64,000 nucleotides of DNA, taken from Escherichia coli. GTDB lineage: Bacteria > Pseudomonadota > Gammaproteobacteria > Enterobacterales > Enterobacteriaceae. Positions 2,408 to 7,128 of the stretch are shown one piece after another (positions within the stretch are counted from its first letter, which is position 1; every line of letters begins with the position of its first letter). Location of the stretch: NCBI RefSeq assembly GCF_003334335.1, contig NZ_QOWQ01000013.1; one strand, written 5' to 3'. A program made the translations under genes and the position numbers. The notes beneath the pieces are model-generated. The model was not told the DNA's origin. It was given only the letters and a program-made list of their open reading frames with translations, and ran no database searches.

Positions 2408-3187
2408 TTAGTAGCTGCTGGCGCTCTTACCGTCGCCGTGGCCCAGCGCTTTCAACAGGCTTGCCAGCAGGCTGGAAGCGCCAAAGCGGTAGTGACGCGC
2501 ATCTGCCCAGTCAGCACCGAACAGTTCATCTGCAATCGCGAGATATTTCTGCGCATCTTCCGCAGTACGCACGCCGCCCGCTGGTTTGAAACCAACGGTT
2601 TTTTCTACGCCCATATCACGGATCACTTCCATCATGATGCGCGCGCTTTCCGGCGTCGCGTTCACAGCCACTTTACCGGTAGAGGTTTTGATGAAGTCCG
2701 CACCCGCTTTGATGGAGATTTCAGACGCTTTACGGATCAGCGCTTCGTCTTTTAGTTCGCCGGTTTCGATGATCACTTTCAGCAGTACATTCGCTGCCGC
2801 GCAAGCCTCTTTACAGGCTTTCACCAGGTCAAAACCAACCTGCTCGTTACCCGCCATCAGCGCGCGGTACGGGAACACCACGTCAACTTCATCGGCACCG
2901 TAGGCGATTGCCGCACGGGTTTCTGCCAGCGCGATTTCGATGTCGTCGTTACCGTGTGGGAAGTTGGTTACCGTAGCAATACGGATTTCCGGGGTGCCCT
3001 GCTCTTTCAGTGTTTTGCGAGCAATCGGGATAAAGCGAGGATAGATACAGATAGCGGCGGTATTGCCGACCGGGGTTTTGGCCTGATGACACAGAGCAAT
3101 TACTTTCTCGTCGGTGTCGTCGTCATTCAGGGTGGTCAGGTCCATTAATTTCAGTGCACGCAGGCTGCTTGCTTTCAGATCAGTCAT
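2408..3187 (-). CDS. deoC: Deoxyribose-phosphate aldolase
   Basis: Track ORF 2408..3211; N-terminus as I recall it ([24 protein letters not shown]) begins at the 9th codon, giving 259 aa with start codon at 3185-3187. Confidence 0.95.
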
Positions 3188-3231
3188 TTCATTCTCCTGG
3201 CTTGTCGCCAATAAAATTCACCTTGCGAGTT

Positions 3232-3247
3232 TGTTAGTATTCTAACA
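3232..3247. promoter_or_regulatory. DeoR operator-like 16-bp palindrome (deoP2-proximal, O2)
   Basis: TGTTAGTATTCTAACA about 45 bp upstream of the deoC start; near-perfect match to the DeoR operator palindrome TGTTAGAA/TTCTAACA. Confidence 0.7.
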
Positions 3248-3444
3248 TCTACTCCGCAACACACTTCGATATACATCACAATTAAGGAAATCTACTTACA
3301 AGTTTGCATCACTGTAATGCGATCTGGTTCAAATAATTCACTTTCAAATGAATGCGTCAGTGGTGGCAAACGCATCAGGATCAAAGTGAACATCACGAAA
3401 CTTCTTACAATGGCGCATCACCTTCGGCATAAAAGGAAAAGAAG

Positions 3445-4995
3445 ATGCCCACTTCTCATGAAAATGCACTGCAACAACGTTGCCAGCAAATTGTCACCAG
3501 CCCAGTGCTTAGCCCGGAGCAGAAGCGCCATTTTCTGGCACTGGAAGCAGAAAACAATCTGCCTTATCCGCAGCTGCCTGCCGAGGCCCGCCGCGCGCTG
3601 GATGAGGGTGTAATCTGCGATATGTTTGAAGGTCATGCGCCGTACAAACCGCGCTATGTCTTACCCGATTACGCCCGTTTTCTGGCGAACGGTTCCGAAT
3701 GGCTGGAGCTGGAAGGCGCGAAAGATCTTGATGACGCACTCTCTCTGCTGACCATTCTTTACCACCACGTACCGTCGGTCACATCGATGCCGGTCTACCT
3801 GGGGCAACTGGATGCGTTGTTGCAACCGTATGTTAGAATTCTAACACAAGACGAGATCGATGTTCGAATAAAACGTTTCTGGCGTTACCTCGACAGAACC
3901 CTGCCAGACGCCTTTATGCACGCCAATATCGGCCCGTCTGATTCGCCCATTACCCGCGCGATCTTACGTGCAGACGCAGAGTTGAAGCAGGTTTCACCGA
4001 ACCTGACCTTTATCTACGATCCTGAAATCACCCCTGATGACCTGCTGCTGGAAGTGGCGAAGAACATCTGTGAATGTAGCAAACCGCACATCGCCAACGG
4101 TCCGGTGCATGATAAAATTTTCACAAAAGGGGGCTACGGGATTGTGAGCTGTTACAACTCACTGCCGCTGGCGGGTGGTGGCAGCACGCTGGTACGCCTT
4201 AACCTGAAAGCCATTGCCGAGCGCAGCGAATCGCTGGATGACTTCTTTACGCGCACTCTACCGCACTACTGCCAGCAGCAGATCGCCATCATCGATGCGC
4301 GGTGTGAATTCCTCTATCAACAATCACACTTCTTTGAGAATAGCTTCCTGGTGAAAGAAGGGCTGATTAACCCTGAACGTTTTGTGCCAATGTTTGGCAT
4401 GTATGGGCTGGCGGAAGCGGTTAACTTGCTGTGTGAGAAAGAAGGGATTGCCGCACGTTACGGTAAAGAAGCCGCCGCAAATGAAGTGGGTTATCGCATC
4501 AGCGCGCAACTGGCGGAGTTTGTCGCCAATACCCCCGTGAAATATGGCTGGCAAAAACGCGCCATGTTACACGCACAGTCGGGGATCAGTTCCGATATCG
4601 GCACCACGCCGGGCGCGCGTTTGCCGTATGGCGATGAGCCAGATCCGATCACCCATCTGCAAACTGTCGCCCCGCATCATGCTTATTATTATTCCGGCAT
4701 CAGCGACATTCTGACCCTCGACGAAACCATCAAACGTAACCCGCAGGCACTGGTACAGCTTTGCCTCGGTGCCTTTAAAGCCGGAATGCGTGAATTTACC
4801 GCCAATGTCAGCGGTAACGATCTGGTTCGCGTTACCGGTTATATGGTGCGTTTGTCGGATTTAGAAAAATATCGCGCCGAAGGTTCACGCACCAACACCA
4901 CCTGGCTGGGCGAAGAAGCCGCACGCAACACTCGTATTCTGGAACGCCAGCCGCGCGTGATAAGCCATGAACAGCAGATGCGCTTTAGTCAGTAA
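3445..4995 (+). CDS. yjjI: YjjI-family putative glycyl-radical enzyme (DUF3029)
   Basis: 516-aa ORF; 3' end overlaps the downstream radical-SAM activase gene; conserved position between deoC and yjjW. Confidence 0.85.
3831..3846. promoter_or_regulatory. DeoR operator, perfect palindrome (deoP1-associated, O1), inside yjjI coding sequence
   Basis: TGTTAGAATTCTAACA perfect 16-bp palindrome, exactly 599 bp from the 3232 palindrome; that spacing matches the two-operator deo promoter architecture as I recall it. Confidence 0.7.
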
Positions 4996-5830
4996 GATTA
5001 TCCCCTTCTCCTGCGTTGACGGGCCAGGCAGTCGTCTGGCTCTGTTTTTGCAGGGCTGCAATCTGCGCTGCAAAAACTGTCACAATCCGTGGACGATGGG
5101 ACGCTGCAATGATTGCGGAGAGTGCGTGCCACAGTGTCCGCATCAGGCGTTGCAGATTGTTGACGGCAAAGTGATGTGGAACGCTGTGGTCTGCGAGCAA
5201 TGTGATACCTGCCTGAAGATGTGTCCGCAACATGCCACGCCGATGGCGCAATCCATGAGCGTGGACGAAGTGCTTAGCCATGTCCGCAAAGCAGTGCTGT
5301 TTATCGAAGGGGTAACGGTAAGCGGCGGTGAAGCCACGACCCAGCTGCCGTTTGTGGTGGCGCTGTTTACTGCTATCAAAAACGATCCGCAACTGCACCA
5401 TCTCACCTGTCTGGTGGACAGTAACGGTATGTTGAGCGAAACCGGCTGGGAAAAATTGCTTCCGGTGTGCGACGGCGCAATGCTCGATCTCAAAGCGTGG
5501 GGGAGCGAATGTCATCAGCAATTAACCGGACGCGATAATCAGCAGATTAAGCGCAGCATCTGTTTGCTGGCAGAGCGTGGCAAGCTGGCAGAACTGCGTT
5601 TGCTGGTAATCCCTGGCCAGGTGGATTATTTGCAACACATCGAAGAACTGGCGGCGTTTATCAAGGGACTTGGCGATGTTCCGGTACGCCTGAACGCGTT
5701 TCATGCCCACGGCGTGTATGGCGAGGCGCAAAGCTGGGCGAGCGCCACGCCGGAAGACGTTGAGCCGTTGGCTGATGCATTAAAGGTGCGCGGGGTGAGC
5801 CGGTTGATATTTCCGGCGCTCTATTTGTGA
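4967..5830 (+). CDS. yjjW: Glycyl-radical enzyme activating protein (radical SAM, extra ferredoxin-like Cys clusters)
   Basis: 287 aa; [11 protein letters not shown] radical-SAM cysteine motif plus additional Cys-rich clusters ([24 protein letters not shown]); overlaps yjjI by 29 nt. Confidence 0.85.
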
Positions 5831-5831
5831 C

Positions 5832-7128
<1,297 letters not shown>

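What the first reader, a model, noticed from the sequence alone, without database searches (positions are those of the whole stretch)
3445..5830. Uncharacterised glycyl-radical-enzyme / activase pair (yjjI-yjjW)
yjjI encodes a DUF3029-type putative glycyl radical enzyme and overlaps by 29 nt a radical-SAM activase (yjjW) carrying extra ferredoxin-like Cys clusters. The substrate of this anaerobic radical enzyme pair is, to my knowledge, not established. The operon sits directly beside the deo nucleoside catabolic operon and shares its regulatory region.
Basis: partly seen in the sequence, partly recalled or inferred. Interest (0 to 1): 0.35.

Follow-up and report, generated by a model that had tools for sequence, protein, structure and literature searches.

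The report
Orphan glycyl-radical enzyme pair yjjI-yjjW
This is the E. coli core-genome gene pair yjjI-yjjW, an oxygen-sensitive radical enzyme and its activating partner. The pair is already annotated, its substrate is still unknown, and control sites of the neighbouring deo nucleoside operon lie inside its coding sequence.

Summary
ORF 3445-4995 (516 aa) is YjjI and ORF 4967-5830 (287 aa) is YjjW, overlapping by 29 nt. The window's YjjI is identical to E. coli K-12 YjjI.

Every in-silico hallmark of a glycyl radical enzyme (GRE) is met:
- the RVTG465Y glycine loop and the invariant finger-loop Cys236;
- an adjacent activase with CX3CX2C plus two ferredoxin-type motifs.

Both genes are under strong purifying selection and present in 5423 of 5426 E. 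coli genomes.

YjjI fails the defining catalytic features of PFL (Cys-Cys), class III RNR (second Cys, ATP cone, Zn site) and the eliminases (Cys-x-Glu). It is therefore a separate, minimal GRE lineage.

No paper in the searched library assigns a substrate. Published data show only direct FNR activation and anaerobic induction.

The link to nucleosides is suggestive, not proven. NupC-family transporters recur next to the pair in different arrangements, but the deo adjacency is largely inherited gene order.

The deo regulatory region does more than abut yjjI. DeoR operators O1 and OE and promoter deoP1 lie inside the yjjI coding sequence.

Verdict: a real, already annotated "known unknown".

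The parts
3445..4995 (+). yjjI CDS, 516 aa, YjjI-family glycyl radical enzyme
   Evidence: ORF. TIGR04040 787 bits. PF11230 E 3e-220. RefSeq annotation. Identical to K-12 b4380. dN/dS about 0.045.
4837..4839 (+). Codon of Gly465 in the R462-V-T-G465-Y motif, the predicted glycyl radical site
   Evidence: R462 and G465 are invariant in the 24-sequence alignment A1 and in A3. The motif lies between two short strands, 460-462 and 467-469, of the model. It aligns to the PFL 'RVSGY' motif.
4150..4152 (+). Codon of Cys236 (V-S-C236-Y-N), the predicted thiyl-radical Cys at the tip of the finger loop
   Evidence: It is the only invariant Cys. It sits in the turn between strands 231-234 and 238-241. 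S235-C236 aligns with PFL C418-C419.
4967..5830 (+). yjjW CDS, 287 aa, radical-SAM GRE activase
   Evidence: TIGR04041 397 bits against a cut-off of 250. PFL-AE structures 8fo0 and 3c8f at E 1e-19. dN/dS about 0.09.
4967..4995 (+). 29-nt overlap of the yjjI 3' end with the yjjW 5' end, implying translational coupling
   Evidence: The same overlap occurs across Enterobacteriaceae and in L002. Synonymous sites here are unusually conserved: third-position conservation 0.95 against a mean of 0.66.
5057..5080 (+). YjjW C31-x3-C35-x2-C38 radical-SAM [4Fe-4S] motif, within [25 protein letters not shown]
5105..5224 (+). YjjW ferredoxin-like insert with two CX2CX2CX3C motifs (C47-C57, C76-C86)
   Evidence: Matches polyferredoxin and ferredoxin chains and ferredoxin NCBIfam models.
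3371..3384 (+). Candidate FNR site (CGCATCAGGATCAA). The right half-site ATCAA is perfect and the left half is poor.
   Evidence: The GGATCAAA block is invariant in 12 genera. It is centred about -40.5/-41.5 from the predicted start. The FNR ChIP summit in K-12 maps to about 3351. The assignment is an inference.
3406..3411 (+). Predicted yjjI -10 hexamer TACAAT (TSS about 3418; Shine-Dalgarno AGGA at 3434-3437)
   Evidence: T, A, A and T are invariant and the spacing to GGATCAAA is conserved. Not experimentally mapped: 'TSS not known' in PMC3688515.
3232..3247 (.). DeoR operator O2 at deoP2 (TGTTAGTATTCTAACA)
   Evidence: 1 mismatch to the palindrome.
3265..3333 (.). The two CRP sites of deoP2, 3265-3280 and 3318-3333, with centres 53 bp apart
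   Evidence: The ETEC CRP ChIP motif TGTGATGTATATCGAA is the reverse complement of 3265-3280. Conserved blocks.
3831..3846 (.). DeoR operator O1, a perfect palindrome (TGTTAGAATTCTAACA) inside yjjI codons 129-134 (Y-V-R-I-L-T). It contains the deoP1 -10 hexamer TAGAAT on the minus strand (3843-3838).
   Evidence: It lies exactly 599 bp from O2. Third-position conservation is 1.00, the top window in the whole gene. It is present in all genera that have the deoC neighbour and absent elsewhere. PMC6389913 states that a deoCABD promoter lies in yjjI.
4110..4125 (.). Candidate DeoR operator OE (TGATAAAATTTTCACA) inside yjjI codons 222-227
   Evidence: It lies 279 bp beyond O1. The sequence is identical in most enterobacterial genera examined. 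It is the second-highest synonymous-site conservation window, 0.96.
5834..6353 (.). Array of five ~101-bp BIME/REP units filling the convergent gap between yjjW and yjjV
   Evidence: Rfam RF02564 naRNA4, 64-79 bits. The gap is 522 bp here, 419 bp in K-12 and 314 bp in EC14.

Best explanation
yjjI-yjjW is a functional, self-contained two-gene cassette, translationally coupled by the overlap. It encodes a minimal (516 aa) glycyl radical enzyme and its dedicated activase.

Inferred mechanism, from established GRE chemistry: under anoxia FNR activates a class II-type promoter about 27 nt upstream of the ATG. YjjW, using its CX3CX2C [4Fe-4S] cluster fed by two auxiliary ferredoxin-type clusters, cleaves SAM reductively. 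The resulting 5'-deoxyadenosyl radical abstracts a hydrogen from Gly465 of YjjI. During turnover the glycyl radical generates a thiyl radical on Cys236, which abstracts a hydrogen atom from the substrate.

YjjI has one catalytic Cys only. It has no PFL Cys pair, no RNR second Cys, and Asn rather than Glu at Cys+2. The reaction is therefore most likely not formate-lyase or RNR-type reduction. A radical lyase, elimination or rearrangement on a small polar metabolite is more likely. The invariant polar set R70, Y71, D150, H159, N186, N238, R251, E305, H376, Q378, D384, R392 would suit an anionic ligand such as a sugar phosphate, but whether these residues line the pocket was not checked.

My best guess for the substrate class is a nucleoside-derived pentose or pentose phosphate. 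I hold this with low confidence.

Shown here: the genes, motifs, fold, selection, synteny and operator positions. Inferred: radical formation, promoter and FNR site assignment, reaction type, and substrate class.
For: Family HMMs are above their curated cut-offs and Pfam agrees.

G465, R462 and C236 are invariant in two independent alignments spanning 29-90% identity.

The activase is always adjacent on the same strand in all 90 or so loci examined, from Enterobacterales to Actinomycetota and Clostridia.

dN/dS is about 0.045 for yjjI and 0.09 for yjjW. The pair is present in 5423 of 5426 complete E. coli genomes.

Regulation: FNR ChIP binding plus FNR-dependent anaerobic induction (PMC3688515). 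FNR-activated class in PMC2634741. 4.3-fold anaerobic induction in Yersinia intermedia (PMC3792023). A conserved GGATCAAA-N21-TACAAT block.

Nucleoside link: a NupC-family transporter (TIGR00804 above cut-off) lies immediately upstream on the same strand in L002. It lies immediately downstream in Edwardsiella, Kluyvera, Trabulsiella, Pseudocitrobacter and Pluralibacter, and 5 kb away in Photobacterium. An integrated functional-association network (PMC2672614) grouped YjjI with YeiM and YjjJ in a deoxyribonucleoside-degradation module.
Against: No biochemical or genetic evidence for radical formation or for any activity was found.

Outside Enterobacterales the neighbours are unrelated to nucleosides: an uncharacterised LysR regulator in Vibrio, Shewanella and Photobacterium, and assorted genes elsewhere.

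The deo adjacency is inherited macro-synteny. Proteus keeps ytjB|yjjIW but lacks deo at that locus.

The FNR left half-site is poor. The ChIP summit (about 3351) lies midway between the candidate site and CRP-2, so the site assignment is uncertain.

Confidence: 0.85

Rival explanations
1. YjjI works in anaerobic nitrogen (nitrate/nitrite/NO) metabolism, as proposed from multi-species biclustering with narG.
For: It falls in the same conserved E. coli/Salmonella bicluster as narGHJI, with an FNR-like motif (PMC3228777). It is co-expressed with nrf, nap, nir, dms and frd genes and sits in GO gene sets for cellular and anaerobic respiration.
Against: Shared FNR control fully explains the co-expression. 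No NarL/NarP heptamer (TACYYNT) occurs in 3150-3500. No respiration or nitrogen genes neighbour the pair in any lineage examined. No known GRE acts on inorganic nitrogen species (background knowledge).
Confidence: 0.07
2. YjjI is a stripped-down class III-like ribonucleotide (or ribonucleoside) reductase that supplies or salvages deoxyribose units anaerobically.
Against: NrdD's second catalytic Cys (E. coli C175) falls in a gap, with no Cys nearby. C236 is the only invariant Cys. There is no ATP cone or specificity region: the alignment starts at NrdD residue 120. There is no C-terminal Zn-Cys4 site: YjjI has no Cys after residue 440. The NRDD Pfam hit has E 0.6. From memory, E. coli nrdD mutants cannot grow under strict anaerobiosis, so YjjI does not substitute for NrdD.
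Confidence: 0.06
3. The pair is an evolutionary relic with no current function. It persists only because yjjI DNA carries the deo operators and deoP1.
For: Operators O1 and OE and promoter deoP1 lie inside the ORF and are the most conserved synonymous sites. No phenotype has been reported in the searched literature.
Against: dN/dS of 0.045 and 0.09 across the whole genes. Catalytic residues are invariant. The pair is intact in taxa that lack the deo neighbour and the operators, including Proteus, Vibrio, Shewanella, Clostridia and Actinomycetota. Expression is regulated.
Confidence: 0.02

Closest known systems
[quoted passage not shown]
   Different: YjjI has no ATP cone or allosteric sites, no second catalytic Cys, and no Zn-ribbon. 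It is about 200 residues shorter. Its activase is of the long PFL-AE/'PFLE_PFLC' type with two ferredoxin motifs, not NrdG-like.
PFL-like GREs: PflB/TdcE formate-lyases and the 1,2-eliminases, including E. coli PflD and YbiW
   Different: Sequence identity is 12-17%. YjjI lacks the 250-300 extra residues that surround the barrel. It has Ser-Cys instead of Cys-Cys, and Cys-Tyr-Asn instead of the eliminases' Cys-x-Glu (the motif is from background knowledge). The Pfam PFL-like model does not hit E. coli YjjI.
GRE activases with auxiliary clusters (TIGR02494 PFLE_PFLC group: HypD-, CutC-, 4-HPAD- and sulfopropanediol-dehydratase activases)
   Same: YjjW has the N-terminal GxGxR...GC-x3-C-x2-C motif followed by a two-cluster ferredoxin insert. 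It scores 100-142 bits against these models.
   Different: It is below every curated cut-off except its own family, TIGR04041. Its partner is a different GRE lineage.

Membership tests
Glycyl radical enzyme superfamily | Ten-stranded alpha/beta barrel of the GRE/RNR type | tested here: met
Glycyl radical enzyme superfamily | C-terminal RVxG[FWY] glycine loop | tested here: met
   R462-V-T-G465-Y. R462 and G465 are invariant in A1 and A3. The motif aligns to the PFL RVSGY motif.
Glycyl radical enzyme superfamily | Conserved Cys at the tip of the finger loop | tested here: met
   C236 is invariant. It lies in a hairpin turn. It aligns to PFL C419.
Glycyl radical enzyme superfamily | Dedicated radical-SAM activase encoded alongside | tested here: met
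   yjjW overlaps yjjI by 29 nt here. The activase was adjacent in every locus that extended far enough to show it.
Glycyl radical enzyme superfamily | Stable glycyl radical detectable by EPR, or O2-dependent backbone cleavage | not testable with these tools
   No report was found in the searched literature.
YjjI family (TIGR04040 / PF11230) | Full-length HMM score above the curated cut-off | tested here: met
   787 bits against 498, covering profile positions 1-497 of 497. PF11230 positions 1-485 of 485.
YjjW family activase (TIGR04041) | HMM score above cut-off, a CX3CX2C motif, and two ferredoxin-type Cys motifs | tested here: met
   397 bits against 250. C31/35/38, C47/50/53/57 and C76/79/82/86.
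Class III ribonucleotide reductase (NrdD) | Second catalytic Cys on the opposite face of the substrate (E. coli C175) | tested here: not met
   hhalign places NrdD C175 in a gap after YjjI P-R-Y71, and YjjI has no conserved Cys there.
Class III ribonucleotide reductase (NrdD) | N-terminal ATP cone or allosteric region and a C-terminal Zn(Cys)4 site | tested here: not met
   The alignment covers only NrdD 120-624. YjjI's Cys residues are at 13, 58, 209, 211, 236, 276, 287, 330 and 440, with none near the Gly loop. The Pfam NRDD hit has E 0.6.
Pyruvate formate-lyase type (PflB/TdcE) | Adjacent Cys-Cys pair in the finger loop | tested here: not met
   S235-C236 aligns to PFL C418-C419.
GRE 1,2-eliminases (dehydratases, CutC, HypD, IslA, PflD/YbiW) | Cys-x-Glu motif: a general-base Glu two residues after the Cys (motif from background knowledge) | tested here: not met
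   The sequence is C236-Y237-N238, with N238 at least 90% conserved. An invariant Glu exists elsewhere (E305), but its position relative to the pocket could not be tested.

The most novel reading that the evidence does not exclude
YjjI founds a third, minimal GRE lineage, neither RNR nor PFL-like. It performs an undescribed anaerobic radical transformation of a nucleoside-derived pentose or pentose phosphate. Its expression in enterobacteria is physically wired into the DeoR O2-O1-OE repression loop and opposed by antisense deoP1 transcription, which couples it to nucleoside availability.
Probability: 0.15. Interest if true: 0.7.

Novelty: already known. Interest (0 to 1): 0.3.

Why it matters
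PDB entries released in 2024 show PflD and YbiW bound to 1,5-anhydrohexitol-6-phosphates. That leaves YjjI as apparently the last E. coli K-12 GRE without a substrate. It is core-genome, FNR-induced and under strong purifying selection, so it presumably carries out a real anaerobic reaction in a heavily studied organism.

It lacks the catalytic signatures of every characterised GRE class, so its reaction could extend the known chemistry of the superfamily.

The analysis gives concrete handles for experiments:
- the catalytic residues G465 and C236;
- a predicted FNR class II promoter;
- a candidate substrate area (nucleosides or pentoses);
- a warning that deletions or recoding of yjjI will disturb deoP1, O1 and OE, and hence deo regulation.

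Tried and rejected
1. Sequence search of the PDB with YjjI alone found nothing (E > 0.9). Only the family profile gave weak PFL, YbiW and NrdD hits.

Distant contexts had to come from 12 exact-protein look-ups.

3. Gene-neighbourhood inference outside Enterobacterales led nowhere. Ferrimonas, Ilumatobacteraceae, Tepidibacter and several metagenomic contigs share only the activase.

4. I tried to retrieve a Haemophilus (HI0521) locus to test my recollection that nupC (HI0519) is adjacent. Cluster look-ups and a profile search of the distant clade did not surface a Pasteurellaceae protein. The point stays untested.

5. The LysR regulators next to the pair in Vibrio, Shewanella and Photobacterium match no characterised equivalog.

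6. No FNR consensus with one mismatch or fewer, and no NarL heptamer, occurs in the spacer.

7. The consensus sigma-70 scan did not detect the yjjI promoter. It emerged only from the cross-genus alignment.

8. Literature searches on b4380, HI0521 and STM locus tags, and on 'glycyl radical enzyme' with nucleoside or deoxyribose, gave nothing relevant.

9. Three-dimensional pocket analysis was not possible, because model coordinates are not exposed to the scripting sandbox.
Full report
**Observation.** The window carries two same-strand ORFs at exactly the coordinates given: 3445-4995 (516 aa) and 4967-5830 (287 aa), overlapping by 29 nt. The DNA is E. coli. 5423 of 5426 complete genomes hold at least 80% of the 3200-5900 stretch, and the best match is 99.1%. 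RefSeq annotates the same boundaries as 'YjjI family glycine radical enzyme' and 'YjjW family glycine radical enzyme activase'. The window's YjjI is 516/516 identical to K-12 b4380. YjjW differs at 5 residues and the deoC-yjjI spacer at 1 nt, so the K-12 literature applies directly. To the left lie deoC (ATG at 3187, minus strand) and deoA, then the rest of the deo operon. To the right lie a REP array, then yjjV, yjjU, ytjA, osmY and prfC.

**Is it a glycyl radical enzyme with its activase?** Every feature that can be tested in silico is met.

- YjjI scores 787 bits on TIGR04040 (cut-off 498). YjjW scores 397 bits on TIGR04041 (cut-off 250). Pfam gives PF11230 (ex-DUF3029) at E 3e-220, and only a non-significant NRDD hit at E 0.6.
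- I built a 24-sequence alignment spanning 29-90% identity. Fifteen columns are invariant. They include R462 and G465 of the C-terminal R-V-T-G-Y motif, and C236, which is the only invariant cysteine. A second alignment of the distant, mostly clostridial clade agrees.
- The AlphaFold2 model from the first alignment is confident (pLDDT 91.5, pTM 0.91). It places C236 in the turn of a beta-hairpin (strands 231-234 and 238-241) and G465 between strands 460-462 and 467-469.
- By sequence alone the PDB holds no relative. With the family profile, the stretch Y-G-V-V-S-C236-Y-N aligns to PFL Y-A-I-A-C418-C419-V-S. hhalign links the whole barrel to E. coli NrdD residues 120-624 (probability 88.8%, E 2.5e-6), with VRLNLKAIA over NrdD ISLNLPRIA.
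- YjjW has the GRE-activase N-terminus [15 protein letters not shown]31NLRC35KNC38HNP and two CX2CX2CX3C motifs (C47-57, C76-86). It matches solved PFL-AE (E 1e-19) and ferredoxin modules.

**Is it functional?** dN/dS against Salmonella and Citrobacter is about 0.045 for yjjI and about 0.09 for yjjW. dS is near saturation, so these values are approximate. The activase is adjacent on the same strand in every locus examined. These include Enterobacterales, Vibrio, Shewanella, Photobacterium, Ferrimonas, an Ilumatobacteraceae actinobacterium and Tepidibacter. Gene order is reversed once. The 29-nt overlap recurs across Enterobacteriaceae and in L002. Its synonymous sites are among the most conserved in the gene. 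This is consistent with translational coupling, since no good Shine-Dalgarno sequence precedes the yjjW ATG.

**Which kind of GRE?** None of the characterised classes fits.

- PFL type needs Cys-Cys. YjjI has Ser-Cys.
- Class III RNR needs a second Cys (E. coli C175), which falls in an alignment gap. It also needs an ATP cone or allosteric region and a C-terminal Zn site, all absent from YjjI.
- The 1,2-eliminases carry Cys-x-Glu (background knowledge). YjjI has C236-Y-N238.

YjjI is also about 200-300 residues shorter than these enzymes. The family is small. It has 541 clusters at 50% identity among 1.84 billion representatives, many of them fragments, with roughly 25 full-length clusters. 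It is nevertheless phylogenetically scattered. It occurs in Enterobacterales, Vibrionaceae, Shewanella, Psychromonas, Moritella, Ferrimonas and Pasteurellaceae. It also occurs in many Clostridia, and in Coriobacteriia, Chloroflexi, Oligoflexia and Actinomycetota. I therefore treat it as a separate, minimal GRE lineage lying between NrdD and the PFL-like enzymes.

**What is known about function?** Nothing biochemical turned up in the searched library.

- yjjI is bound by FNR in ChIP and is FNR-activated anaerobically, with the TSS unknown (PMC3688515). It is classed as FNR-activated in the HU-regulon study. It is induced 4.3-fold anaerobically in Yersinia intermedia.
- A biclustering study grouped it with narG and proposed 'nitrogen metabolism'. 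An integrated functional-association network (PMC2672614) put YjjI, YeiM and YjjJ in a deoxyribonucleoside-degradation module.

**Gene context.** In all Enterobacteriaceae loci that extend far enough upstream, and in Hafnia and Edwardsiella, deoCABD is divergent from yjjIW. In Proteus the pair sits next to ytjB-serB-radA-nadR, the same chromosomal neighbourhood, without deo. The deo adjacency is therefore largely inherited gene order and weak functional evidence.

More telling is a NupC-family nucleoside transporter (TIGR00804 above cut-off) that appears in different arrangements. It lies directly upstream on the same strand in L002. It lies directly downstream, convergent, in Edwardsiella, Kluyvera, Trabulsiella, Pseudocitrobacter and Pluralibacter. 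It lies about 5 kb away in Photobacterium.

In Vibrio, Shewanella, Photobacterium and L084 an uncharacterised LysR regulator sits convergently right after the activase. Elsewhere the neighbours are unrelated. I conclude that a nucleoside or pentose link is the best available lead, at roughly 25-30%.

**Regulatory architecture.** The DeoR palindrome occurs at 3232-3247 (O2, in the spacer) and as a perfect copy at 3831-3846, exactly 599 bp away, inside yjjI codons 129-134. A degenerate copy lies 279 bp further on, at 4110-4125 (codons 222-227). From memory, these spacings equal the published O2-O1 and O1-OE distances (Dandanell and Hammer 1985; Dandanell et al. 1987). On the minus strand O1 contains TAGAAT, the deoP1 -10 hexamer. 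PMC6389913 states that one deoCABD promoter lies in yjjI.

I ran an unbiased scan of third-codon-position conservation over 38 distinct enterobacterial yjjI genes (mean 0.66, sd of windows 0.10). It ranks O1 first (1.00), OE second (0.96), the yjjW start overlap third (0.95) and the deoP1 -35/upstream region fourth (0.92). O1 and OE are present in the genera where deoC is the neighbour and absent where it is not. In L002, for example, the peptide reads YVGDQT instead of YVRILT. In E. coli the operator forces the rare codons AGA and CTA.

**Predicted yjjI promoter.** Aligning the spacer from 12 genera shows the deoP2 elements (O2; CRP sites 3265-3280 and 3318-3333). Separately, it shows an invariant GGATCAAA (3378-3385) followed 21 nt later by TACAAT (3406-3411). 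I read this as the yjjI promoter. The FNR half-site 14-mer (3371-3384) is centred about -40.5/-41.5 from a start near 3418, which is the class II geometry. The K-12 FNR ChIP summit maps to about 3351. That is equidistant from this site and CRP-2, so the assignment is an inference.

**Consequences, inferred.** The yjjI promoter and the first 413 nt or so of its transcript lie inside the DeoR O2-O1 loop. RNA polymerase must also pass O1 and OE. deoP1 transcripts run antisense across the yjjI 5' region and promoter. Whether this couples or opposes yjjI and deo expression is untested.

**Mechanism proposed.** FNR turns on the pair under anoxia. YjjW reductively cleaves SAM. The 5'-deoxyadenosyl radical abstracts a hydrogen from G465. 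The glycyl radical generates the C236 thiyl radical, which abstracts a hydrogen atom from the substrate. These steps are inferred from established GRE chemistry.

YjjI has one catalytic Cys, Asn at Cys+2 and an invariant Glu305. It also has a conserved polar and cationic set (R70, Y71, D150, H159, N186, R251, H376, Q378, D384, R392). On that basis I favour a lyase, elimination or rearrangement on a small polar, probably anionic metabolite over RNR-type reduction or formate-lyase chemistry. A nucleoside-derived pentose or pentose phosphate is the leading, low-confidence candidate.

**Verdict.** It describes an already annotated, recognised orphan family rather than a discovery. Its value lies in being a core-genome E. 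coli GRE with no assigned substrate and non-canonical catalytic signatures, and in the intimate embedding of deo control elements in its coding sequence. Interest is about 0.3.

Noticed in passing
window 3831-3846 and 4110-4125 (inside yjjI); 3838-3843 minus strand: DeoR operators O1 (a perfect palindrome) and OE, and the deoP1 -10 hexamer, lie within the yjjI coding sequence. They are the most conserved synonymous sites of the gene across enterobacterial genera. O1 imposes the rare codons AGA and CTA on the peptide YVRILT.
   Followed up: yes
window 3371-3411: An invariant GGATCAAA-N21-TACAAT block is found across 12 genera. It is the predicted class II FNR-dependent yjjI promoter, and the TSS has not been mapped in the literature I found.
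   Followed up: partly
window 5834-6353: A tandem array of five ~101-bp BIME/REP units lies between the convergent yjjW and yjjV genes. Each unit hits Rfam naRNA4 (RF02564) above the gathering score. Copy number differs between strains: the gap is 522 bp here, 419 bp in K-12 and 314 bp in EC14.
   Followed up: partly
L084 10466-11362, L091 9465-10601, L092 9441-10451, L093 9493-10440 (all minus strand): An uncharacterised LysR-family regulator sits convergently, immediately after the activase gene, in Vibrio, Shewanella, Photobacterium and a related genome. It matches no NCBIfam equivalog above cut-off and may be the pathway's sensor in those taxa.
   Followed up: partly
window 3768-3783 (inside yjjI): The sequence CGTACCGTCGGTCACA equals the intragenic CRP ChIP motif reported for ETEC H10407 within yjjI. 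It lies about 55 bp upstream of the deoP1 -10 hexamer.
   Followed up: no
AFDB entry A0A077ZDX6: A 'Trichuris trichiura' protein that fuses Fer4_12, DUF3029 and Radical_SAM domains is 100% identical to E. coli YjjI. This is almost certainly E. coli contamination in the whipworm assembly, with yjjI and yjjW merged into one gene model.
   Followed up: no
L001 1285-1548 versus L095 9770 onward: Downstream of deoD, strain EC14 carries a small 264-nt helix-turn-helix gene where K-12 has hipH (yjjJ). This is a strain-variable spot next to the deo operon.
   Followed up: no
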